Shown here: positions 2,790-50,577 of the stretch, in pieces
Layout: each line of letters begins with the position of its first letter
Numbering within the stretch: position 1 is the stretch's first letter
From: an uncultured Acidobacteriota bacterium
GTDB taxonomy: Bacteria; Acidobacteriota; UBA6911
Assembly: GCA_963827655.1 (NCBI GenBank)
Contig: CAWHCF010000036.1
Coordinates: 192,001 to 256,000 of the forward strand
Direction of reading: 5' to 3'
DNA: 64,000 nucleotides
Program-made: the position numbers and the translations under genes
The notes under the pieces: generated by a model
The model's input: the letters and a program-made list of their open reading frames with translations, nothing else
Databases searched by the model: none
What the model was told of the DNA's origin: nothing

Positions 2790-5700
2790 CTAGCGGTGCA
2801 GGCACATGCGCAGCGCCGATAACAATTGTTCGGTGTTGACCGGTTTTGCCAGGTAGTCGGAAGCCCCGGCTTCCAGGCATTTCTCGCGATCGCCTTTCAT
2901 GGCTTTGGCGGTAAGGGCGATGATCGGCAGGCGCCGGAAGGACGCGTTCTGACGAATCACCTGCATGGTCTGAAAGCCGTCCATCTCCGGCATCATGATG
3001 TCCATCAGCACAACGGCCAGGTCAGGGGTGCGTTCGAGGATCTCGACCGCCTCGCGGCCGGTGGTCGCCGTGAGCACCGTCATACCGCGACGCTCCAGCA
3101 CGCTGCTCAAAGCGAAGATGTTCCGCACGTCATCATCGACGACAAGCACCGGCTTGCCCACCAGGTCTTCGTCGGAGCGGTGCAGCCGGTCGAGCATCTC
3201 CCGCTTGTCCGACGGCAGTTCGGTCACGATCCGGTGCAGGAACAACGCCGTTTCATCCAGCAGCCGTTCGGGCGATTCGACGCCCTTGACGACCACGCTC
3301 CGGGCCATCGTATGCAGCCGAGCGTCCTCTTCCGGCGACAACTCCTTGCCGGTGAAGACCACCACCGGTAGATCGCGCAGCGCGTGGTCATCGCGGATGC
3401 GCTCCAGCACTTCGAAGCCCGACATGTCCGGCAGACGCAGGTCAAGAACCGCACAGTCGACACCGCTGGCCGTGTAGAGCATCCAGGGCCTCCGCGCCCG
3501 TACCGGCGTGTGAGAATGTCGATATCACTATGAGCCAGCAACTCCGTTATGCTCAACTGCTCGGCGGCATCATCTTCCACCACCAGCAGGCGCTTGCGGC
3601 GGCGCGTGGCGTAGTCCTTGATCCGGGACAGGGCGGCCTGCAGGCCCTCGGTTGTGGTGGGCTTGGTTACGAAGGCGAAAGCCCCGCGGGACAGTCCGTC
3701 CTGCCGGTCTTCGTCCAGCGTGATGATCTGCACCGGGATGTGCCGGGTGGCCGGATCCTGCTTCAGTTGACTCAGGACCGTCCAGCCGAGCATATCGGGC
3801 AGGAAGATGTCCAGCGAGACTGCCGCCGGCCGGAACTGGCGGACGAGATCGAGGCCTTCAGCGCCACGCGCGGCCACCAGTACTTTGAACCCCTGTTCAT
3901 GGGCCAGGTCGACCAGCGCGCGGGCATAATGCGGGTCGTCCTCGACAATCAACAACGGTGGCATCTTCGGGCTGCAAGTTGTCACGGTCGTCCAGGACCT
4001 TCTCGGCCGGGCGTTCGGGCAAGCGCACCGCCGGGAATCCCGCAGATTGGCGACGGAGCGCTCTTTCGCCCTTGGTCCGAATGATAATGGACGGCCCGGC
4101 GTAGCGTTGCGGCAGGAAGAGCGTAAACGCGCTGCCCGCGCCCGGTGTACTCCGCAACTGGATTTCGCCGCCCAGCAGGTTGGCGAGCTCCCGGCTGATG
4201 GCCAACCCCAGCCCGGTCCCTCCATACTTCCGGTTCGTGCTTGCGTCGGCTTGCTGGAAGGCCTCAAAAACGATCTTCTGTTTTTCAGGCAGGATACCGA
4301 TGCCCGTATCCGAGACCTCGAAGGCTACGACTGTCGTCGCCCCTTTGAGGACCGGGTGGTCGGGGTTCCAACCGGATGTGGCAGCCGAGACGTTCAGTCG
4401 CACTCCGCCGTGCTCGGTAAACTTGAACGCGTTCGACAACAAGTTCTTCAGCACCTGCTGCAGACGCTTCGAGTCGGTGAAGATGCTGCGGCCCAGGTGG
4501 GAATCCACAGTTGCTTCGAACGAGAGCCGGCGGCTTTCGGCCTCGTGACGGAAAGTACGCCCCACCGCCTCCAGCAGATTGGCGATGAGGACATCCTCCG
4601 CATCCACCGTAACGGTGCCGGATTCGATCTTCGAGAGATCGAGGATGTCCGTAATCAGGTTCAACAGGTCGGACCCTGCGCCGTGGATGGTGCGGGCAAA
4701 CTCGACCTGCTTGGCCGTCAGGTTGCCCTCGGGGTTGTCGCTGAGCTGCTGGCCCAGGATCAGAATGCTGTTGAGCGGGGTCCTCAACTCGTGCGACATG
4801 TTGGCCAGGAACTCTGACTTGTATTTGGAGGTCAGTGCCAGCTCGGCGGCTTTCTCTTCGAGCGCCCCGCGGGCTTGCTCGATTTGCTGATTCTTGCGCT
4901 CGACCTCGGCGTTCTGCTCGGCGAGCTGTTGTGCCTTCTGGGCCAGCTGGTCATTGGTCTGCTGCAACTCCCTTTGCTGCGCTTGCAGCTCGGCGGCCAG
5001 TTGCTGCGATTGCTTCAGCAGTCCTTCGGTCTGCATCGTGGCCTCGATGCTGTTGAGCACGATGCCGATGCTGGCGGTCAGCTGTTCCAAAAACACCAGA
5101 TGGGAGGGAGCGAAGTCGTTCAGCGAGGCCAGCCCCAGCACGGCCTTGAGCTGATCCTCGAAGACCACGGGGAACACGACGACGCTGCGGGGCACGGCGT
5201 TGAAGAATACGGAACCGACCGATATGGTGTCGGGCGGAACTTTCGTCACCAGGATGCGCCGCCGGTCTGCCGCGCATTGCCCGAGAAACCCCTGACCCAA
5301 CTCGAGCCGTGAGGGATAGCCGTTGCCGTGCGCATTGCCATAGCTGGCCAGCATCCGCAGATGGGGCTCACCTTCAGTAGACATCTGATAGATGAGGCCC
5401 TGATGGGCGTTAACCAGCGGCACAAGTTCGGACAGTAGCATTTTGCCGACATTGGCCAGATCGCGCTGGCCCTGCAGCATGCCGGTAAACCGCGCCAGGT
5501 TAGTCTTGAGCCAATCCTGTTCGGTGTTGCGATCGGTAGTGAGCCGCAGGTTACCGATCATCGTGTTGATGTTGTCCTTCAGCTCGGCGACCTCGCCGCG
5601 GGCCTGAACCTGGATGGAACGGGTCAGGTCGCCCTTAGTCACAGCCGTGGCGACCTCGGCAATGGCGCGCACCTGCGTGGTCAGGTTGGCGGCGAGCAGA

Positions 5701-16946: not shown

Positions 16947-18281
16947 ATGCGCGATCGAAAGACGAATGCGGCCCGCCGCATTCTCCCGCCGCGCGGTTCT
17001 TCGCGGCGCCGGAGTCACCATGGCCTTGCCGTGGCTCGAATCATTTCCCAGCTTCGCCGGCGTCACTTCCGCACCCGTCTTTCCCGAAGCGTTTCGCGGT
17101 TCTGTTCATGGGGAATGGAGTGAACGAGGATCACTGGGACGCCCAGGGTTCCGGGAGCCGACATGAATCTCAGCAAGACCTGGCGCCGCTCGAGCCGCTG
17201 AAGCACAAGATCAACGTGATTCACGGTCTTTTCCACAAGCGATCCACCGGTCTGGGCATTCATCCGGCGCAGACGGGAGGTCTGCTCTCGGGCGCGAACA
17301 TTCAGAAGGGCGCCATCATCAAGGCCGGCGTCACGGTGGATCAGGTGATCGCCCAGCGCATCGGGCAGGATACGGCGCAGTCCAGCATCGTTCTGGCTTG
17401 CGAGCAGCCGATGACCGGATACCACGAGACGAACTACTCGATGGCCTACAGCTCGCACATCTCCTGGCAGACTCCGGACTCGCCGGTCCCGAATGAAGTC
17501 TATCCCTCGCTGGCCTGGGACAACCTTTTCGAAAACCGCGGCAGCCTGCGCAACATGAGCATTCTCGACCGCGTGAAGGATGACGCCGAAACGCTGAGCG
17601 GGGCGATCAGCTCCGACGACAAAGCCAAGCTGGATGAGTATCTGACCAGCGTGCGCGAGGTGGAGAAGCGCGTCGAGGGCATGCGGAAGAACAAAGACAA
17701 GGCGAGAGGAACTGGCGAAGCAGAAGAACCGTCCCGTCTTTACCATGGACCGGCCGGCGAACGGCTTGCCGGAAGACCTTCGGGAACACGCGCGTCTGAT
17801 GTGCGACATCATTGCGATCGCTTTCCAGACGGACAAGACTCGTGTGGCGACGCTGCTGCTCGCTCGGGATCTTTCCGCGATGTACTATCCGTTCCTGGAA
17901 GTCCGCGAGGGACACCATTCCGCGTCGCACTACAACAACTCCGACGGCTACGAACGCATCACGCGTTTCCACCTGGGCCAGCTCGCTTATCTGGCCGCCA
18001 AGCTGGACAGCATGCCGGAGGGCAACGGCACTGTGCTGGACAACTCGTGCCTGATGTGGCTTTCGAACATGTGGATCGGCCGGAAGCACGACAACACGAG
18101 ATTGCCCCTCGTGCTCGCCGGAGGGCTGGGCGGCACGCTGCAAACCGGACGCACGCTGGACTACGTGCAGGCCGGCGACGAGAATCGGAAGATGTGCAGC
18201 CTGTACCTCTCGATCATGGATCGGATGGGAGTGAAGCTGGAAAGCTTCGGTGACGCCGAGACCCGCCTCGAACGCCTGTAG
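16947..18281 (+). CDS. DUF1552 (HxxSH-motif) protein, frameshifted
   Basis: SRRAVLRGAGVTMALPWLES leader, TVDQVIAQ, GHHSASHY, EGNGTVLDNS, LPLVLAGGLGG; usual partner of PSD proteins. Confidence 0.85.
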
Positions 18282-18342
18282 GATCAGGCTGTCCCCGCCA
18301 GTCCTGTGTGAGAAAATTCAGTGAACGCTCCTCCCCGACACT

Positions 18343-18478
18343 TTCCGAAGCCTTATGTGGCGACGGGGTCATCAGACCCGTCGCAAGTAAGGTGATCGGG
18401 AGGATTTAGCCTTAAAAAGTTCTTTCGTGCCACGAGCAGGCCGGACGGGCTTAATAGCACCATCCGCACATGTATCGG
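18343..18478. repeat. REP-doublet (REPIN-like) element, copy 1; intron-free version of the intron target
   Basis: TGTGG-CGACGGG..CCCGTCG hairpin, CCTTAAAAAGTTC spacer, GGACGGGCTTAATAGCACCATCCGCACATGTATCGG; aligns by eye with 47835-47847+48618-48737 and with 40547-40617. Confidence 0.8.
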
Positions 18479-18507
18479 ATCTCCACATCTCGCAAGTCGA
18501 CTGACGC

Positions 18508-19821
18508 CTAGGAGCGCGCCAGGTCGGCCCAGACCTGGCCGCGCGGGAACTCGTACGCGTCGAGCGATTCAGGCCGCATTGCGATGCTGTAGCCGGGCCG
18601 CGTCGGCGGCATGTAGCGCGCGTTACGGATTACCACCGGATCGACGAAGTGCTCGTGAAGGTGCTCGACATACTCCGCGACGCGGTCCTCGAGCGAGGCC
18701 GAGACGTATATGTAGTCGATGAGCGAGAGATGCTGCACGTGTTCGGGAAGGCCGACACCGCCCGCGTGCGGGCACACCGGCACACCGAACTTTGCGGCCA
18801 TCAGCAGCACCGCCAGAACCTCATTCACACCGCCGAGCCGGCAGCTATCGATCTGGCAGAAACGCAGGGCATTCGCCTGGAGGAACTGCTTGAACAGGAC
18901 CCGGTTCTGACAAACTTCGCCCGTGGCGACTCCGATCGGAGCCAGCGCGCGGGCGATGGCGGCGTGCCCTAGGACGTCGTCCGCACACGTCGGCTCTTCG
19001 ATCCACCAGGGGTTGAACGGCCGAAGCCGGTTCACCCACTCGACGGCCTCGCCGACTTCCCACTTCTGGTTGGCGTCGATCATGAGCCTGCGATCCGACC
19101 CGATCTCTTCGCGGACGATGGCGAGGCGGCGAAGGTCATCTTCCAGATTGCCCCCAACCTTCACCTTGAAGGCGCTCCATCCCGCGGCGACCGCCTCCCG
19201 GCACAACCGGCGAACCTGGTCGTCCGGGTAGCCCAGCCAGCCAACCGAAGTCGTGTAGGCGGGATAGCCGTCACGCAACATTTCGGACTCGCGCACGGCG
19301 CGTGTCGACGCGTTGCGGCGGAGGATATCGAGCGCCTCCTCCGGCGTCAGAGCGTCGGTGATGTACCGGAAGTCGACGCACGACACGACGCGCTCAGGGG
19401 TCATGTCGACGACCAGCTTCCACAGCGGCTTCCCTTCCGCCTTGGCGTAGAGGTCCCACACGGCGTTGACCACTGCGGCGGTCGCCATATGGATCGCACC
19501 CTTCTCGGGACCGATCCAGCGCAACTGACCGTCCGACGTCAGGCTCCTCCAGAACGGAACCATCTCTCCGGTGATTGACTCCAAGGTCCTTCCGACCACA
19601 AGCGGCTCAAAGGCGCGGATCGCAGCGACACAAACCTCGTTCCCGCGGCCGGCTGTAAAGGTGAGACCGTGTCCCGCAAGCCCAGCGGCGCTGTCGGTCT
19701 CCAGGACGACGTAGGCGGCCGAGTAGTCGGGAGCGGCGTGCAAGGCGTCGGATCCCGCGTGCGTCCGGGAGGTGGGAAAGCGGATATCACGAGCAACGAG
19801 TCCGGTAATCTTGATGGGCAT
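18508..19821 (-). CDS. fucD: L-fuconate dehydratase (enolase superfamily)
   Basis: DIRFPTS...GSDA...PDYSAAY, LRWIGPEKG, YPAYTTSVGWLGY, KVKVG, WIEEPT, PVCPHAGGVGL; co-oriented with a GH29 fucosidase. Confidence 0.92.
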   Translation of the reverse strand: MPIKITGLVARDIRFPTSRTHAGSDALHAAPDYSAAYVVLETDSAAGLAGHGLTFTAGRGNEVCVAAIRAFEPLVVGRTLESITGEMVPFWRSLTSDGQLRWIGPEKGAIHMATAAVVNAVWDLYAKAEGKPLWKLVVDMTPERVVSCVDFRYITDALTPEEALDILRRNASTRAVRESEMLRDGYPAYTTSVGWLGYPDDQVRRLCREAVAAGWSAFKVKVGGNLEDDLRRLAIVREEIGSDRRLMIDANQKWEVGEAVEWVNRLRPFNPWWIEEPTCADDVLGHAAIARALAPIGVATGEVCQNRVLFKQFLQANALRFCQIDSCRLGGVNEVLAVLLMAAKFGVPVCPHAGGVGLPEHVQHLSLIDYIYVSASLEDRVAEYVEHLHEHFVDPVVIRNARYMPPTRPGYSIAMRPESLDAYEFPRGQVWADLARS

Positions 19822-46250: not shown

Positions 46251-47753
46251 ATGATCCCCCTCTCGACAGTGGACTGGCTGATCTGCCTGGGCTACCTGGC
46301 CGCGGTGATCGTGGTGGGGTTCTGGTGTGCTCGCAGATCCACTACCGAAGAAGATTACTTCGTAGGATCGCGCAGAATGAGCTGGTGGCTCATCGGAGTT
46401 TCGCTGTTTGCTACCGGCTTCAGCTCACTCTCTTTCGTGGGGCTGCCGCGCGAGGCCGCCTACGCGGACTACCACCTCTTCCTCGCGATTCTGCTCATTC
46501 CTGTCTGGGTGGCTCCCGTCGTCGGCCGGGTTTTCATTCCCATCTACCACAGGCTGCGGTTGACCAGCGCCTATGAGTACCTCGAGCGCCGCTTCAACCG
46601 GCAAACGCGGCTGGCGGGAAGCGGTCTCTACACGGTCTACTGCCTGGGCTGGTTGGGCTCGATGCTGTACGCCGTCGGTCTGGTTGTGGCAGTGGCCCTC
46701 GGTCTTGCGGATGACCAGATCATCCGGATAGTGGTCGTAGTCGGTCTCTTAACCACCATCTACACGGTGGTGGGAGGATTCACAGGAGTGATCTGGAACG
46801 ACCTGCTGCAGGCTGTCACGCTGGCGGTGGGGATTGCAATCGTGCTGACCACCGCAGTTGGCCAGATCGATCGCGGCTGGATCGGAGTATGGGAACTGGC
46901 GCAGCTCCATGACAAGCTGCAGATGTTCGACTTGCATCTCGATCTCCCCTCTGGCGGAACCTTCTTTTCGGCGGCGGCTCTCGGGTTGTTCACCTTCCTG
47001 GGAATCTTCGCGGTCGAGCAGGTCATGGTCCAGCAGTACGTCGCAATGCCGGATGTTGCGAGCGCGCGCCGCGCCTTGTGGCTCACCGCGCTCATCGTAG
47101 TCTGCGTCGATCTTATGTTCTTCGTGGTAGGAACCACGGTTTTTGCTTACTACCACCAGTCCCTGCCGGCGAACGCCCCGGCGGGAAGCGGTTTCCCTCC
47201 TCTTGCGCGGCAGGACCAGCTGCTCCCACTCTTCATCAAAACCGAAGTTGGGTTTCCCGGGCTGACGGGTGCCTTCCTGGCCGGCCTGTTCGCAGCGGCA
47301 ATGAGCAGCCTTGCCGGAGGTTTGAACTGCCTGACGGCGCTTCTCGTCTGCGACTGGCTCCCGGGACGGAAGCTCCGCGCCGGCGCGACACGCCTGATCT
47401 CAGCCCTGTTCGGGCTCGCGGTTACGGGCGCGTCGCTCCTGGTCCCGCACATTGGAAAGAATGTCTACGAGATCATTGTCAAGATCATGGGCACACTGAG
47501 TGGCCCGCTGCTCGGAGTCTTTCTGCTCGGCATCCTCACTCGCCGCGCGAACTCAGCCGGCGCCCTCGCCGGGCTGGCCGGAGGACTTGCGTTCAGCGTC
47601 TGGCTTATCTTCCAATCGGTCGTGTCCTACTGGTGGTTCAGTGCCATCACCACCTTTGCCACGATCACGATCGGCCTGGTCGTGAGCCAGTTCTTGCCGC
47701 CTCGTCCGGCACATGAACTCGAGGGACTCGTCCTGCGTCGGTCCCTTGAGTAG
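46251..47753 (+). CDS. Sodium:solute symporter (SSS, SiaT-like clade)
   Basis: EDYFVGSR.M, SLFAT..S..SFVGLP, SAYEYLERRF, GGFTGVIWND, FAAAMSS. Confidence 0.92.
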   Translation: MIPLSTVDWLICLGYLAAVIVVGFWCARRSTTEEDYFVGSRRMSWWLIGVSLFATGFSSLSFVGLPREAAYADYHLFLAILLIPVWVAPVVGRVFIPIYHRLRLTSAYEYLERRFNRQTRLAGSGLYTVYCLGWLGSMLYAVGLVVAVALGLADDQIIRIVVVVGLLTTIYTVVGGFTGVIWNDLLQAVTLAVGIAIVLTTAVGQIDRGWIGVWELAQLHDKLQMFDLHLDLPSGGTFFSAAALGLFTFLGIFAVEQVMVQQYVAMPDVASARRALWLTALIVVCVDLMFFVVGTTVFAYYHQSLPANAPAGSGFPPLARQDQLLPLFIKTEVGFPGLTGAFLAGLFAAAMSSLAGGLNCLTALLVCDWLPGRKLRAGATRLISALFGLAVTGASLLVPHIGKNVYEIIVKIMGTLSGPLLGVFLLGILTRRANSAGALAGLAGGLAFSVWLIFQSVVSYWWFSAITTFATITIGLVVSQFLPPRPAHELEGLVLRRSLE

Positions 47754-47847
47754 AGCGGCTTGGTCTGTGGCGCGGGCCATAATGAGGCCGTCGCAAAACG
47801 TAGATTCCCCTGGTAGTCATGGCTCAGACCTTCTTCCGAGCACCCTG

Positions 47848-48617
47848 ATAGGGGTAGGGAGGATCGATTGAGTTCGATCCCCCCTCCCTCCGAACCGGAC
47901 GTGCGGATCTCCCGCATCCGGCTCTCCAGTCGGTGGTTCACCTCGAAGAGGGTTGACGTGCCATTCAGAGGCGTTGGTCAGGATCCCACACCTGCGAATG
48001 TAACTGAAAACTTTCGCGATTGGTTTCCAGTTGCCCGGATGACCAAGGCTGTCAACATGCATCTCACGTGCGCTGCCAGTTCCGGCCACGGGTTTCAACC
48101 CGTCGCTCTCTCCGACTCGCATAGCCCTTGGGCACTAGCGTCGGTTTGTCTTCTGTCAGTCACGCATCCATGCATCCACCTCCCTGCGCTCCTTTGCTCC
48201 AGGCCCATTACGGCCCTTCCCCGCTCTTATGAGCGCTCTGACTCCTGCCCGCCCGGCTCTTCGGCTCTTCCGAGCATGAACTCCGGCTCCTGCTACGAGC
48301 AGGTCTCCCTGATTCACGCACTTGATCTTCCGATCCCTCCGTCTCCAACCACCAGTCAGTCCCCCAACGTCGCTTTCGCACGCTACCCCTCAGCTCGTCG
48401 AGTCTCCCGCTTTTGCGGGTCTAGGTTTTGCCTTACGCCAGCAGGCTCGCCGATACAGACCGGCCGAATCGAGTTCGTTATCCTACGGATGGATCGTTCA
48501 CCTCCTGCTGCTCCCCACCCCGCCTCACGGCGACGCAGTTGCATTCGGTTTCAGGCCGGAGAGCGTATGCCTGGAGAGGACTTTCACCTCTCTGATCATG
48601 TGCGCTTTAAGGCGCAC
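47848..48617 (-). mobile_element. Group II intron, complete ribozyme, no intron-encoded RT ORF (770 nt)
   Basis: 5' end GTGCG at 48617; domain V GAGCCGGATGCGGGAGATCCGCACGTCCGGTTC (47924-47892, AGC triad, AC bulge); domain VI with branch A at 47855 and 3' end CCCTAT at 47848; too short for an RT and no YADD-type ORF. Confidence 0.92.
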
Positions 48618-48780
48618 TGGCGACGGGCCAGTGGCCCGTCGCAATTAACGTAATCGGTATACCTTAACCTTAAAAAGTTCGGTTGTGCCCCTCGGGGGCC
48701 GGACGGGCTTGATAGCCCGTCCGCACATGTATCGGTGGTTTTTGCGACGGCTCGGCGAAGCAAGCTTGCGCACCCCAAAG
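48618..48780. repeat. REP-doublet element, copy 3 (intron 5' exon side), plus a further REP
   Basis: Perfect hairpin GCGACGGGCC-AGT-GGCCCGTCGC, CCTTAAAAAGTTC, GGACGGGCTTGATAGCCCGTCC, then GCAAGCTTGCGCACCCCAAA. Confidence 0.82.
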
Positions 48781-48804
48781 AGCCTGTCGCCAATACGATC
48801 GCAT

Positions 48805-50577
48805 TCAGCGATTCGGCATCACCGGTAGGGCCACATGGGACGGGCGCGCGCGATCGTGGAAGACGGTCTGGCGCGCGGACCTCCACTCGGTATCGGTAGG
48901 AATAGGGTTCCCGGTATTCTGGTTCGGCGCTATGAAGGGATATGCGCTGCTCGAAATTTCGATTCGCACCCTATGCCCGGGCAGGAAGGCATGCGCGAAA
49001 TCGAACAACTCGATCCGGAACTTCTCGGGTTTCCCGGGCGTGAGAAGCTCCGGGCGCTCGAGCCCGTTTCGATAACGCGCCCGGATGACGCCCGTTGGTA
49101 GCGTACCGAGTTTCACCGCGCGCCCGTCGGGATAGACATCCAGTATCTTGGCGGTGAAGTCGGTATCCCGGGCGTCACTGGCCGCAAACAGCTCGACGTG
49201 GCTGCGACCAATCACCTCCAGCCGGTCAGCCAGTGGATCGCTGGTGTAGACGAGTACGTCGTCGCGGCGCTCGATCGGTCGGTGGTCGAGAGGTAAGTCC
49301 TCGCCATTGAGCTTCGAAGGCACAGGATTTCGAGGGTCGAAAGTAAAGCCATCGGGAGGCTCGTCGGCCGCGCTGTCCCAACTGAGTCGCCCATCCCCGG
49401 TGGCAGAGTTTGCTCGGCCGCCGCTGTGCAGGTAGAGGGGCCGGAACCGGGCATCGGCCGGCGGGTACTGATCGAAGCTGCGCCACTGGTTCAGTCCGGT
49501 AACGTAGACGCGGGCCCGCGGGAAGTCGAACTTCGGGGTCACTCTCTTCAGGTAATGGTCGAAAAAGGCGAGGTGAAGCGCTTTGTTGTCGACCACCGAA
49601 TCGGAAGAGAAGTCCATGTCTCCGAGCTTGATCTTTCCGCCCAGAAAGGTGTCGTTGTGAGTCCACGGTCCGGCAAGCAGGTACTGCTGTTCGCGGGACG
49701 GAGAGTGTGCCGTCATGCCGCGCCACCGGTGCATCGCCGTGGGCTGGTCACCGTCGAACCAGCCGGTGACGTGGAGGGCAGGAATGTCGAGGCTGCGGTA
49801 GACTTCGGGATCGAAGTGCAGCTTCTTCCAGTGTGGATCCCAGTCGGGGTGCTCCATGAAGGCCCGATAAAAAGGAATCCGGCGGCCAAATGCCTCGTCC
49901 ATCGTCAGGAGCGGCCGGTGCTGGAAAACCTGGTCCCAGTCTGTGCCGGTGACATTGTCCCCCTGGTAGATCCGTCCCGAGACGAGGTTCAGCCACGGGA
50001 TCGCCCACCCCATGACGACCGCTCCTCCGAGGTAATTGAAGATGCCGTCGAGAGCACCGGAGGCGGTGGGGGCGATACAGACCAGGTGAGGCGGACGCGC
50101 CCGAGCCGCCAGCCACTGCACTTCCCCCAGATAGGAAAACCCCAGCATCCCGACACGGCCGTTACACCACGGCTGCGTTGCCATCCATTCCACAGTGTCA
50201 TAGCCGTCGTCGGCGTCCGTGAGATAGAAGTTGTACTCTCCTTCCGAATCTCCGCGTCCGCGCACGTCCTGGACGACCAGGACGTAACCACGGCTCGCAA
50301 AGAATGCCCCGTGTTCAGGGAATTTGAACAGCCCCCTGGTCTTGAGATAGGGCGTCCGGATAAGGAGCGCAGGGTAGCGCCCGGAATCCGGCGGGAACCA
50401 TACGTCGGCCGAAAGGCGTACCCCATCGCGCATCGGGATGCGCATGTCAAACTGCCTCCGGACCTTGGGGGACTCCTTTGATTGTCCCCAGACACCCAGA
50501 TTCGCCGCGAGCGTCAGCAACGCGACGGCAAAACCGGGAATCGACCACCGAACCGAACCTGACAGAGTCAAGGCCAT
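48805..50577 (-). CDS. CocE/NonD-family (peptidase S15) hydrolase
   Basis: IPMRDGVRL, RTPY, QDVRGRGDSEG, GFSYLG, GWFD, GPWTH, GHRVRIEISSS. Confidence 0.93.
   Translation of the reverse strand: MALTLSGSVRWSIPGFAVALLTLAANLGVWGQSKESPKVRRQFDMRIPMRDGVRLSADVWFPPDSGRYPALLIRTPYLKTRGLFKFPEHGAFFASRGYVLVVQDVRGRGDSEGEYNFYLTDADDGYDTVEWMATQPWCNGRVGMLGFSYLGEVQWLAARARPPHLVCIAPTASGALDGIFNYLGGAVVMGWAIPWLNLVSGRIYQGDNVTGTDWDQVFQHRPLLTMDEAFGRRIPFYRAFMEHPDWDPHWKKLHFDPEVYRSLDIPALHVTGWFDGDQPTAMHRWRGMTAHSPSREQQYLLAGPWTHNDTFLGGKIKLGDMDFSSDSVVDNKALHLAFFDHYLKRVTPKFDFPRARVYVTGLNQWRSFDQYPPADARFRPLYLHSGGRANSATGDGRLSWDSAADEPPDGFTFDPRNPVPSKLNGEDLPLDHRPIERRDDVLVYTSDPLADRLEVIGRSHVELFAASDARDTDFTAKILDVYPDGRAVKLGTLPTGVIRARYRNGLERPELLTPGKPEKFRIELFDFAHAFLPGHRVRIEISSSAYPFIAPNQNTGNPIPTDTEWRSARQTVFHDRARPSHVALPVMPNR

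What the first reader, a model, noticed from the sequence alone, without database searches (positions are those of the whole stretch)
47848..48645. ORF-less group II intron that appears to home into a REP-like repeat family
Seen: a complete 770-nt ribozyme (GUGCG start, domain V with AGC triad, branch A 8 nt from the AU end) with no RT ORF. Removing it restores TTCCGAGCACCCTG|TGGCGACGGGCCAGTGGCCCGTCGCAA, which aligns with an intron-free element at 18343-18386 (TTCCGAAGCCTTATG|TGGCGACGGGGTCATCAGACCCGTCGCAA). The insertion splits the G|TGG tag and lies 2 nt after a perfect 10-bp hairpin on the intron strand. A stem-loop in the intron's 5' region (GCCU-GCUGGCGUA-AGGC, 48446-48430) carries UGGCG, complementary to the 5' exon end CGCCA, so it is a candidate EBS1-IBS1 pair. 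Known: hairpin-adjacent targeting (terminators, attC) is described for class IIC introns, which have a CGC triad; this one has AGC and IIB-like branch spacing. Inference: a non-autonomous non-IIC intron mobilised in trans, using a multi-copy intergenic repeat as a safe target and transcribed by read-through from the cocE-like gene.
Basis: partly seen in the sequence, partly recalled or inferred. Interest (0 to 1): 0.85.

Follow-up and report, generated by a model that had tools for sequence, protein, structure and literature searches.

The report
ORF-less group II intron homing into palindromic repeats
This is a complete self-splicing "group II" intron that has lost its own reverse-transcriptase gene yet has copied itself into hairpin-forming repeat elements of the genome, showing how a stripped-down mobile RNA picks safe landing sites.

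Summary
Window 48617..47848 (- strand) is a 770-nt group II intron without an RT gene (Rfam DV/DVI, 57.9 bits). The genome holds 4 full copies. Three sit at the same point (CGCCA|C), 2 nt after the 10-bp hairpin of a repeat with 48 strict copies. The fourth sits after the hairpin of a second repeat family and carries two matching EBS1 changes.

The proposed EBS1 loop is right. In 47 distinct intron/site combinations from relatives, 38 pair 5 of 5 with the last five exon bases (4% when shuffled). EBS3 was also found.

RT-bearing siblings of about 1.85-1.9 kb exist in related genomes. The window intron is an internal deletion of about 1.1 kb of such an element. The whole lineage inserts 2-5 nt after GC-rich hairpins, as IIC introns do. 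Its ribozyme, however, fails the IIC RNA criteria: it has an AGC triad, a 5-nt DV loop, no AGGAA motif and a 5-bp EBS1.

Trans-mobilisation is inferred, not shown. All copies share the deletion, and they are 97-99% alike inside repeats that are only 50-75% alike. No cognate RT is in this 90%-complete assembly.

I rate it a new variant of a known kind. Its RT class is unresolved.

The parts
47848..48617 (-). ORF-less group II intron, copy A, 770 nt (GUGCG...CCCCUAU)
   Evidence: Sequence. Rfam RF00029 at 57.9 bits. 101 of 102 plus 51 of 51 lineage-conserved positions are kept. D1-D3 aligns with 29 RT-bearing relatives; 84 pairs are predicted and 62 have a compensatory change.
48620..48642 (-). 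Target hairpin in the 5' exon, 10 bp (GCGACGGGCC-ACU-GGCCCGUCGC), ending 2 nt before the insertion site
   Evidence: -14.2 kcal/mol, z -6.5.
48618..48622 (-). IBS1: the last five bases of the 5' exon (CGCCA)
   Evidence: Pairs with EBS1. Covariation is seen in copy D and in 38 of 47 distinct combinations among relatives.
48436..48440 (-). EBS1 (UGGCG), intron nt 178-182, in the loop of GCC-UGCUGGCGUAA-GGC
   Evidence: Sliding the exon window by 1-2 nt abolishes the pairing.
48349..48349 (-). EBS3 candidate (G, intron nt 269) pairing with the first base of the 3' exon
   Evidence: The highest mutual information of all D1 columns; paired in 45 of 47.
47847..47847 (-). IBS3: the first base of the 3' exon (C)
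47959..48171 (-). Domain IV remnant (intron nt 447-659) with broken remains of the first ~60-70 RT codons and the last 8 codons; about 1.1 kb of the ORF is missing
   Evidence: BLAST to full-length siblings stops at nt 446 and resumes at nt 660. Remnant peptides. Gap placement.
47892..47924 (-). Domain V: AGC triad, 2-nt bulge, 5-nt terminal loop GAGAU
   Evidence: Rfam alignment. The same form is found in 50 of 52 distinct relatives by pattern.
47848..47889 (-). Domain VI: a long helix with the bulged branch-point A at 47855
   Evidence: Rfam alignment; sequences of relatives.
47768..48792 (-). Host repeat element, family 1 (about 255 nt without the intron): a composite of hairpins with ~31-nt inverted, hairpin-forming ends
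   Evidence: Consensus of 45 free copies. Coordinates were read. 142 first-look candidates in this genome and none in 40 relatives searched.
18250..18554 (-). Intron-free copy of the same repeat (hairpin at 18360-18384), reading ..CGTCGCCA|CATAAGG..
48805..50577 (-). Upstream gene on the intron strand: X-Pro dipeptidyl-peptidase / CocE-type S15 hydrolase
   Evidence: Pfam PF02129 (2.5e-57) and PF08530.
46251..47753 (+). Convergent downstream gene: sodium:solute symporter
   Evidence: Pfam PF00474 (1.9e-33).

Best explanation
The element is a non-autonomous group II intron. It is an internal-deletion derivative (about 1.1 kb of the RT/maturase ORF lost from domain IV) of an RT-encoding, endonuclease-less intron lineage. 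That lineage chooses DNA targets by structure plus a very short sequence:
- a 5-bp IBS1-EBS1 pairing that starts 2-5 nt after, or overlaps, the base of the stem;
- a 1-bp IBS3-EBS3 pairing;
- no EBS2.

In this genome the hairpins that carry the matching IBS1 belong to multi-copy palindromic repeat families lying between genes, so insertions are harmless.

**Shown:**
- The ribozyme keeps the lineage's conserved positions and covariation-supported helices.
- EBS1 and EBS3 are identified by covariation.
- Three copies sit at the same point of repeat family 1. One copy, with a retargeted EBS1, sits at the equivalent point of repeat family 2.
- All four copies share the same deletion.

**Inferred:**
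- The copies arose by reverse splicing and reverse transcription (retromobility) after the ORF was lost. The RT was therefore supplied in trans, most likely by a full-length sibling that is absent from, or unassembled in, this genome.
- Whether the copies are still mobile or still splice is not known.
For: 1. **It is a group II intron.** RF00029 scores 57.9 bits. The boundaries are GUGCG and AU. D1-D3 gives 84 consensus pairs, 62 with compensatory change, in 30 sequences including the window copy. Copy A keeps 101 of 102 and 51 of 51 positions that are >=95% conserved in RT-bearing relatives; copy D keeps 102 of 102 and 51 of 51.

2. **It is a deletion derivative.** Siblings in G027, G002 and G057 are 1.84-1.9 kb with RTs of 448-462 aa. 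These RTs score 398-408 bits to TIGR04416. Homology covers intron nt 1-446 and 660-770. RT remnants remain in the gap.

3. **Copies in this genome.** There are 4 full copies, 1 internal fragment and 2 DV-like remnants.

4. **Targeting.** Copies A, B and C lie at CGTCGCCA|CA in repeat family 1, which has 48 strict copies with 3 occupied. Copy D lies at GCGCACUC|CAAAG in family 2, where 25 uninterrupted copies of that junction exist. EBS1 reads UGGCG in A-C and GAGCG in D, matching exon ends CGCCA and CACUC. That is two compensatory changes.

5. **Lineage-wide rule.** 61 of 80 distinct sites have a perfect hairpin of >=6 bp ending <=8 nt upstream, with a modal spacer of 3 nt. Only 3.2% and 2.3% of random positions do. 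EBS1/IBS1 pairs 5 of 5 in 38 of 47 combinations and 4 of 5 in 7 of 47, against 4% for shuffled partners. EBS3/IBS3 pairs in 45 of 47. In G002, one intron sequence sits after 9 hairpins whose stems differ by compensatory changes, so the stem is not read by base pairing.

6. **The insertions were independent.** Introns A, B and C are 96.9-99.1% identical. Their 170-nt upstream repeat flanks are 67.6-75.4% identical and their 90-nt downstream flanks 49.5-58.3%.

7. **It is not an assembly artefact.** Contigs of three other public runs cover the deletion region continuously with 0-1 differences (records 1, 18 and 26).

8. **The ORF-less form is older than this genome's copies.** A 3' fragment in G007, a different genus, spans the deletion junction at 79% identity.
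Against: - **No cognate RT in this genome.** The only RT hits are a IIC-type intron RT on C22 and a short fragment on C49. The C22 RT is 39% identical to the sibling RT, and its frame is broken at two homopolymer runs by my reading. The supposed helper is therefore missing. The assembly is only 90% complete, so absence is not shown.
- **No evidence of expression, splicing or current mobility.** The one RNA run laid held only diverged relatives.
- **Copy C is decaying.** It has 4 changes at conserved DV/DVI positions.
- **Weak sign of structural constraint since the split of A and D.** Of 9 pairs touched by D-versus-A differences in nt 1-480, only 1 is a two-sided compensatory change and 3 are broken.
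- **Fragments show degradation too.** The C13 fragment and the C23/C35 remnants show that degradation also occurs, or possibly mis-assembly.
Confidence: 0.8

Rival explanations
1. It is simply an ORF-less member of class C (IIC), comparable to the natural ORF-less IIC ribozymes called HYERs. On this reading the hairpin targeting is the ordinary IIC behaviour and nothing about the lineage is distinct.
For: - Hairpin plus short IBS1 plus IBS3 with no EBS2 is the IIC mode of exon recognition (Toor et al. 2006, PMC1702495, passages read).
- The sibling RT lacks an endonuclease domain, and its best solved relatives are IIC RTs: 7uim 228.5 bits and 6ar1 219.8 bits, against 165 bits for a chloroplast-like RT and 141 bits for LtrA.
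- Miura et al. 2022 (PMC8919778, passages read) place terminator-adjacent types g6, U1 and U2 next to class C.
Against: - IIC RNA hallmarks listed in PMC1702495 are not met. The triad is AGC, not CGC, in 50 of 52 relatives by pattern and in the other 2 by eye.
- There is no conserved AGGAA motif: it occurs in 6 of 55 sequences at scattered places. The IIC-type intron on C22 has it at nt 107.
- EBS1 is 5 bp rather than 3-4 bp.
- None of the 7 Rfam D1-D4 models reaches its threshold in 19 lineage members, while the C22 intron scores 129 bits to RF02001.
- The DV loop of 5 nt and the long DVI fit the published description of IIE/IIF (Nagy et al. 2013, PMC3753933, passages read).
- The ribozyme without DIV is about 560 nt, against the 412 nt quoted there for a IIC intron.
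Confidence: 0.2
2. The copies were spread at the DNA level. The intron inserted once into a repeat element, and the composite was then copied by transposition of the MITE-like repeat, by duplication, or by gene conversion between repeat copies. No RT would be needed after ORF loss.
For: The host repeat looks like a mobile or recombining element: it has inverted hairpin ends and many copies. Homologous flanks could support gene conversion.
Against: - The flanks of A, B and C are far more diverged (50-75%) than the introns (97-99%).
- Copy A lies in a different sub-type of the repeat from B and C.
- Copy D lies in an unrelated repeat family, at the same distance logic, with an EBS1 changed to match.
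- Short-tract gene conversion limited to the intron itself cannot be fully excluded for A-C.
Confidence: 0.07
3. The missing RT ORF is an assembly artefact: a collapse or mis-join of a full-length intron.
For: The genome is a metagenome-type assembly of 53 contigs. It contains an odd internal fragment with 100% identity to copy A on C13.
Against: Four separately placed copies share the same 770-nt form. Contigs from three other public runs cross the deletion region with 0-1 differences.
Confidence: 0.02

Closest known systems
Group IIC (bacterial class C) introns, e.g. B.h.I1, which insert after intrinsic terminators or other inverted repeats
   Same: The target is recognised as a 5'-exon stem-loop followed by a short IBS1, plus IBS3. 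There is no EBS2. The RT has no endonuclease domain. Insertions lie outside genes. Solved IIC RTs are the sibling RT's best matches (PMC1702495 and PMC4424553, passages read).
   Different: The triad is AGC, not CGC. The DV loop is 5 nt, there is no AGGAA motif, EBS1 is 5 bp, and D1-D3 is larger. There is no hit to the Rfam D1-D4 model that the genome's own IIC-type intron matches. The hairpins have no T tail and are members of repeat families rather than terminators.
IIE/IIF (bacterial classes E and F) ribozymes as described by Nagy et al. 2013 (PMC3753933, passages read)
   Same: Overall IIB-like build, 450-700 nt without the ORF, a 5-nt DV loop and a long DVI (named there for IIF). There is a possible alpha' in a terminal loop (weak). 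The RT has no endonuclease domain.
   Different: Those classes are described with an apparent EBS2-IBS2 pairing and sequence-specific homing. Here a hairpin stands where IBS2 would be. RT membership in class E or F was not tested, because no labelled reference sequences were at hand.
RT types g6, U1 and U2 of Miura et al. 2022 (PMC8919778, passages read), reported to sit right after Rho-independent terminators
   Same: These are En-minus RT types outside core class C, with insertion just after hairpins.
   Different: I could not tell whether this lineage is one of them. Their sequences and supplementary figures were not available here. Toro & Nisa-Martinez 2014 (PMC4244168, passages read) describe g6 as having IIC-like RNA, which this lineage does not have.
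ORF-less bacterial group II introns mobilised or spliced in trans (the cyanobacterial case cited in Zimmerly & Semper 2015, PMC4424553) and ORF-less IIC 'HYER' ribozymes (as described in PMC11754743; the HYER paper itself was not seen)
   Same: A ribozyme without an IEP, present in several copies and derived from RT-encoding relatives.
   Different: PMC4424553 states that known bacterial ORF-less introns nearly always share the genome with a related IEP. Here none was found in a 90%-complete assembly. HYERs are described as class IIC; this ribozyme is not IIC by RNA criteria. DNA-cleaving activity was not tested.
REP/BIME-type palindromic repeats as insertion targets of mobile elements (Tobes & Pareja 2006, PMC1525189, table read: group II intron with REP in 2 of 9 copies in P. 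putida KT2440)
   Same: Mobile elements land in intergenic palindromic repeats.
   Different: Here the link is precise and mechanistic: the same base in 3 of 3 family-1 insertions, guided by EBS1. The repeats are larger composites. No RAYT-type transposase was linked to them; there is one Y1_Tnp hit in the genome and its flanks were not examined.

Membership tests
Group II intron (ribozyme) | Domain V/VI consensus with catalytic triad, 2-nt bulge and bulged branch A; 5' GUGYG and 3' AY | tested here: met
   RF00029 at 57.9 bits against a gathering score of 40, full length. GUGCG and AU ends.
Group II intron (ribozyme) | Conserved, covarying D1-D3 secondary structure | tested here: met
   84 consensus pairs, 62 with compensatory changes, in 30 sequences including the window copy. 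101 of 102 conserved positions are kept.
Group II intron (ribozyme) | EBS1-IBS1 pairing with the 5' exon end and EBS3-IBS3 (or delta-delta') with the 3' exon | tested here: met
   EBS1 pairs 5 of 5 in 38 of 47 combinations against 4% when shuffled. EBS3 at nt 269 pairs in 45 of 47. The base 5' of EBS1 is constant, so this is not a IIA-type delta pairing.
Group II intron (ribozyme) | Self-splicing or lariat formation | not testable with these tools
   Needs in vitro splicing or RT-PCR.
Class IIC (RNA definition of Toor et al. 2006, PMC1702495) | CGC in place of the AGC triad in DV | tested here: not met
   AGC in the window copy, in 50 of 52 distinct relatives by pattern, and in the other 2 by eye.
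Class IIC (RNA definition of Toor et al. 2006, PMC1702495) | DV distal stem 2 bp shorter than in IIA/IIB | tested here: inconclusive
   DV is 33 nt with a 4-bp distal stem and a 5-nt loop, as I read it from the Rfam alignment. That is about 1 bp shorter than the Rfam consensus, not 2.
Class IIC (RNA definition of Toor et al. 2006, PMC1702495) | 11-nt epsilon' bulge with conserved AGGAA | tested here: not met
   AGGAA occurs in the first 200 nt of only 6 of 55 distinct sequences, at differing places. It is present at nt 107 of the genome's IIC-type intron.
Class IIC (RNA definition of Toor et al. 2006, PMC1702495) | EBS1-IBS1 of only 3-4 bp | tested here: not met
   Five positions covary. The sixth pairs in only 22 of 83.
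Class IIC (RNA definition of Toor et al. 2006, PMC1702495) | [quoted passage not shown] | tested here: met
   61 of 80 sites have a perfect hairpin, against 2-3% at random. Identical introns sit after stems of different sequence.
Bacterial class C (RT phylogeny) | RT groups with class C reference RTs | tested here: inconclusive
   The best solved relatives are IIC RTs (228 and 220 bits, against 165 and 141 for other classes). There is 39% identity to the IIC-type RT on C22. Classes D, E and F have no solved RT, and no labelled reference set was available.
Classes E/F (IIB-like; Nagy et al. 2013) | 5-nt DV terminal loop | tested here: met
   GAGAU in the window copy, and G-R-R-A-N in 50 of 52 relatives.
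Classes E/F (IIB-like; Nagy et al. 2013) | alpha' at the tip of a stem-loop in DId3 | tested here: inconclusive
   The candidate pairing is nt 51-56 with nt 234-239. It is about 78% paired, shows little covariation, and the alignment is noisy there.
Classes E/F (IIB-like; Nagy et al. 2013) | Apparent EBS2-IBS2 pairing | tested here: not met
   A hairpin of variable sequence occupies the IBS2 position.
Classes E/F (IIB-like; Nagy et al. 2013) | RT groups with class E or F references | not tested
   Two scans of named genome records returned no organism known from the papers read to carry a class F intron.
Non-autonomous (ORF-less) retroelement mobilised in trans | Several copies sharing one ORF deletion at independent sites | tested here: met
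   A fragment with the same junction is present in G007.
Non-autonomous (ORF-less) retroelement mobilised in trans | A related IEP in the same genome | tested here: not met
   Only a IIC-type RT and a short fragment were found. The assembly is 90% complete.
REP/BIME-type repeats | Short palindromic units, many intergenic copies, compensatory stem changes | tested here: met
   48 strict copies with stem variants GGCC/GGCC and GGTC/GACC. Composite consensus.
REP/BIME-type repeats | Association with a RAYT (Y1 transposase) | tested here: inconclusive
   There is one PF01797 hit, at C35:41745-42074. No family-1 hairpin was listed on C35, and the flanks were not examined further.

The most novel reading that the evidence does not exclude
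Two linked readings remain open.

1. The parent lineage may be a second, non-IIC branch of group II introns that evolved, or retained, structure-based recognition of DNA hairpins on a IIB-like ribozyme. It would use genome-specific REP-like repeats as its homing sites in many phyla, including the double-hairpin motif that Rfam lists as Acido-Lenti-1 RNA.

2. The ORF-less derivative may be a long-lived, SINE-like parasite. It is present in at least two genera and still has a ribozyme intact at all conserved positions. It retargets between repeat families by EBS1 changes, and it multiplied in a genome without its own RT. That would imply either borrowing the unrelated IIC RT that targets the same repeat, or moving with no intron-encoded protein.
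Probability: 0.3. Interest if true: 0.8.

Novelty: new variant of a known kind. Interest (0 to 1): 0.6.

Why it matters
**Target choice.** The reviews I read (PMC4424553; PMC7306698) state that hairpin-guided insertion belongs to class C alone. Here the same target logic runs on a ribozyme that fails the IIC RNA criteria. It is seen in records titled Acidobacteriota, Planctomycetota, Verrucomicrobiota, Desulfomonilaceae and others. If the RT tree confirms a separate lineage, structure-based targeting either arose twice or is older than class C.

**Repeats as landing pads.** The case gives a clean natural example of retargeting. Two EBS1 substitutions move the element from one repeat family to another.

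**A possible meaning for an orphan RNA motif.** It suggests that some "orphan" hairpin RNA motifs, such as Acido-Lenti-1, may be repeat elements that serve as intron landing sites.

[quoted passage not shown] A multi-copy ORF-less lineage without a visible helper bears on how such ribozymes persist. It is also a compact natural ribozyme of about 560 nt (core) with a 5+1-nt guide plus a hairpin requirement, of the type now being explored as protein-free DNA-targeting tools (PMC11754743).

Tried and rejected
**Rfam D1-D4 models.** I used them to try to class the ribozyme. The only match was 16 bits, E 0.53, to RF02003 in the window. None reached threshold in 19 relatives. This gives no class.

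**Naming the lineage through named genomes.** Two scans of genome contigs returned almost only MAG records plus Singulisphaera. None was an organism that the papers I read list as carrying a class F intron, so the link to class F (g5) stays a guess. A tblastn against plasmids gave best hits of 53-54% in Paraburkholderia and Cupriavidus, with generic annotation only.

**RAYT link for the repeat.** There is one Y1_Tnp hit. I did not pursue it.

**Sequencing runs.** All runs are kept as contigs, so expression, splicing and RNA ends could not be read. The RNA run X15 held only diverged relatives of parts of the intron. A joint "skips 800" in X1 is another, intron-free copy of the repeat with 29 different letters between the sides. 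It is not an empty allele of this locus. Parts of the stretch without cover in these runs say nothing.

**Structural constraint between copies A and D.** Too few informative pairs to weigh.

**Alpha-alpha'.** Suggestive only.

**Promoter and terminator scan.** No promoter-like site was found. The two terminator-like sites lie on the + strand, which is not the intron strand, and are within what chance would give.

- Simon et al. 2008 (PMC2525955) is not held. What I say about it comes from papers that cite it.
- Supplementary tables and figures of Toro 2013 and 2014 and of Miura 2022, which list introns by class, were not opened because supplements are closed. They may bear on the class of this lineage.

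**Searches behind "not seen in print".** I found no paper describing hairpin- or REP-guided homing by a non-IIC ribozyme. The library lacks most subscription journals.
Full report
**What is there.** On the - strand, window 48617 to 47848 reads GUGCGCC...CCCUACCCCUAU, 770 nt. Rfam's group II model for domains V and VI matches 47926-47848 end to end at 57.9 bits against a gathering score of 40. The match shows an AGC triad, the two-base bulge, and a bulged A eight bases from the 3' end. The only ORFs inside are short or antisense frames, and a sibling RT finds nothing there by tblastn at E<=0.01. The intron lies between two convergent genes. A CocE/X-Pro dipeptidyl-peptidase-type S15 hydrolase (48805-50577, -) lies upstream on the same strand, and a sodium:solute symporter (46251-47753, +) lies downstream. 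The 5' exon ends in a 10-bp hairpin (-14.2 kcal/mol as single-stranded DNA, z -6.5) followed by CA.

**Copies in the genome.** The window is contig C36:192001-256000 of an 8.18-Mb, 53-contig assembly rated 90% complete. The intron occurs four times in full:
- A: C36, this window.
- B: C23:199613-200381, 99% identical.
- C: C5:19899-20666, 98% identical.
- D: C23:201459-202226, 93% identical.

There is also an internal fragment on C13 (nt 98-600, 100% identical to A) and two DV-like remnants. All four full copies align without a large gap, so they share the same ORF-less domain IV.

**Where the copies sit.** A, B and C follow the same sequence..TTGCGACGGG(Y)C-loop-G(R)CCCGTCGCCA|, and are followed by CAG. 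A strict pattern for this hairpin followed by CA finds 48 places in the genome, 45 free and 3 occupied. Aligning the 45 free copies shows a composite element of about 255 nt. It has roughly 31-nt inverted ends that are themselves hairpins, a second internal hairpin, the target hairpin, and a further weak hairpin after the insertion point. BLAST with one free copy found 142 first-look candidates in this genome and nothing at E<=1e-5 in 40 related genomes.

Copy D follows a different hairpin, GCGCAAGCAAGCTTGCGC, plus ACTC. Its exons join to GCGCACTC|CAAAG, a string that occurs uninterrupted 25 times in the genome as part of a second repeat family.

**EBS1 and EBS3.** Two positions have therefore changed on both sides and pairing is kept at 4 of 5. 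I then collected relatives, described in the next section. Among 83 sequences there are 47 distinct EBS1/exon combinations and 40 different EBS1 pentamers:
- 38 of 47 pair at all five positions (Watson-Crick or G-U).
- 7 of 47 pair at four positions.
- With shuffled partners only 4% pair at five.
- Sliding the exon window by one or two bases destroys the signal.
- A sixth position pairs in only 22 of 83.

EBS1 is thus intron nt 178-182, window 48440-48436. A scan of all D1 columns against the first base of the 3' exon singled out nt 269 (window 48349), which pairs in 45 of 47. The base just 5' of EBS1 is constant. The 3' exon is therefore read in the IIB/IIC way (EBS3), not the IIA way.

**Origin: an internal deletion of an RT-bearing lineage.** In 60 related genomes, 29 had some match to the intron. 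In G027, G002 (at least 8 copies) and G057 (3 copies) the matches to nt 1-446 and nt 660-770 lie about 1.3 kb apart. They enclose an ORF of 448-462 aa, which scores 398-408 bits to the group II RT/maturase model TIGR04416 and has no endonuclease domain. In the window copy, nt ~390-575 still show broken remains of RT codons 2-60, and nt 654-677 show the last eight codons. A multiple alignment places about 1.1 kb of gap between nt ~573 and ~658. A 3' fragment in G007, a different genus of the same family, aligns continuously to nt 559-770 at 79% identity and so spans the deletion junction. The ORF-less form is therefore older than the copies in this genome.

**The lineage rule.** Two scans of named genome records returned 80 loci each. 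They come from records titled Acidobacteriota, Planctomycetota (including Singulisphaera), Verrucomicrobiota, Desulfomonilaceae, Nitrospirota and others. Of 80 distinct insertion sites, 61 have a perfect hairpin of at least 6 bp ending within 8 nt of the site, most often 3 nt away. The figure is 3.2% for random positions in the same loci and 2.3% in this genome. Many of the remaining 19 show hairpins with a mismatch. Within one genome the hairpins are again members of local repeat families. In G002 one intron sequence sits after nine hairpins whose stems differ by compensatory changes. The stem is therefore recognised as a structure and not by pairing with an EBS2.

**Is the ribozyme intact?**
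- An RNAalifold consensus of the window copy with 29 RT-bearing relatives has 84 pairs in D1-D3, and 62 show at least one compensatory double change.
- Of 102 columns that are >=95% conserved in 48 distinct RT-bearing relatives, copy A keeps 101, B 100, C 101 and D 102.
- Of 51 such columns in the DV-DVI part, A, B and D keep all 51 and C keeps 47. Copy C's DV is visibly damaged.

**How the copies arose.** Introns A, B and C are 96.9-99.1% identical. The repeat sequence around them is only 67.6-75.4% identical upstream (170 nt) and 49.5-58.3% downstream (90 nt). The introns are therefore much younger than the repeat copies that hold them, which argues for separate insertions rather than copying of a composite block. 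Copy D, in another repeat family with a matching EBS1, cannot be explained by DNA-level copying at all. Since all copies share the deletion, the insertions happened after the ORF was lost and needed an RT from elsewhere. That step is inference.

The genome as assembled has no cognate RT. The maturase model finds one gene, on C22. RVT_1 finds that gene and a short fragment on C49. tblastn with the sibling RT finds the same two, at 39% and 36% identity.

The C22 element is a IIC-type intron:
- It scores 129 bits to RF02001.
- Its DV has a CGC triad by my reading.
- It has AGGAA at nt 107.

It sits in the same repeat family 1, a few bases downstream of the A-C site. Its RT frame is broken twice at homopolymer runs. 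These breaks could be real or could be sequencing errors.

**Not an assembly artefact.** Logan contigs of three other public runs cover the deletion region continuously: 47845-48537 with 1 difference, 47862-48329 with 0, and 47894-48353 with 0. One of these runs may be the source sample. Only contigs were available, so nothing can be said about transcription or splicing.

**Which class?** Toor et al. 2006 (PMC1702495, passages read) define IIC RNAs by five features. I tested each:

| IIC feature | Result here |
|---|---|
| CGC triad | AGC throughout |
| Distal DV stem 2 bp shorter | 4-bp distal stem and 5-nt loop in a 33-nt DV |
| 11-nt epsilon' bulge with AGGAA | No conserved AGGAA |
| 3-4 bp EBS1 | 5 bp |
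| No EBS2, with a 5'-exon stem-loop in its place | Met |

No Rfam D1-D4 model reaches threshold in 19 members. Nagy et al. 2013 (PMC3753933, passages read) describe a 5-nt DV loop for IIE/IIF and long DVI stems for IIF, and both fit. Their third mark, alpha' in a terminal loop, is only weakly suggested.

On the protein side, the sibling RT's best solved relatives are IIC RTs, but classes D-F have no solved RT. Zimmerly & Semper 2015 (PMC4424553, passages read) and Waldern et al. 2020 (PMC7306698, passages read) attribute terminator or hairpin targeting to class C only. Miura et al. 2022 (PMC8919778, passages read) add RT types g6, U1 and U2, placed next to class C. I could not place this lineage among those types. 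My reading is that it works like a IIC intron at the target but is not a IIC ribozyme. Its RT class is open.

**Verdict.** The finding is a new variant of a known kind: a non-autonomous, hairpin- and repeat-homing group II intron from a widespread lineage with a IIB-like core. The open points are the RT class, the source of the RT, and whether the copies still splice and move.

Noticed in passing
G000:C22:~191490-193455 (- strand; loci L012/L148), outside the window: An RT-encoding IIC-type group II intron (RF02001 at 129 bits, CGC-type DV, AGGAA at nt 107) sits in another copy of the same repeat family 1, a few bases downstream of the point used by the ORF-less intron. Its RT reading frame is broken at two homopolymer runs. 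Two unrelated intron lineages thus use the same repeat hairpin.
   Followed up: partly
L140:4038-4082 and 4111-4155; L070:3103-3147; L075:3169-3215; G000 genome-wide: Rfam's Acido-Lenti-1 RNA (RF01687) matches double-hairpin repeats next to related introns. In L140 the intron's two exons together read like one such motif split between hairpin 1 + CTA and CTCTCAG + hairpin 2. G000 has at least 37 matches over the cut-off, several beside repeat family 2. The motif may be a REP-like repeat that serves as a homing site.
   Followed up: partly
G000:C13:1188-1690 (+), outside the window: An internal piece of the intron (nt 98-600), 100% identical to copy A, is embedded in unrelated sequence 1.2 kb from a contig end. 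It is either a rearranged fragment or a local mis-assembly.
   Followed up: no
G000:C23:173316-173390 (-) and G000:C35:53362-53409 (+), outside the window: Two 3'-terminal remnants of same-lineage introns (AGC triad, 5-nt DV loop). The C23 remnant abuts what reads, by eye, like the end of a transposase gene. Upstream of the C35 remnant lies an uninterrupted copy of the repeat-family-2 junction used by copy D.
   Followed up: partly
window 48745-48792 (- strand): In this copy of the host repeat, the left terminal hairpin carries an extra insert (..GGGGTGCGCAAGCTTGCTTCGCC..) that resembles repeat family 2. The repeat families appear to nest in one another.
   Followed up: no
run X15 (RNA library), loose end at window 48651: A contig joins the 3' end of a IIC-type intron (the same end as the C22 element) to the + strand of a family-1 repeat, 8 nt after the hairpin. 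IIC-type introns therefore also use this hairpin in the opposite orientation in some community member.
   Followed up: no
G000:C23:200566-201400 (+), between copies D and B: Copies B and D lie only about 1.1 kb apart, on either side of and antisense to one gene with a signal-peptide-like start. That gene was not identified further.
   Followed up: no
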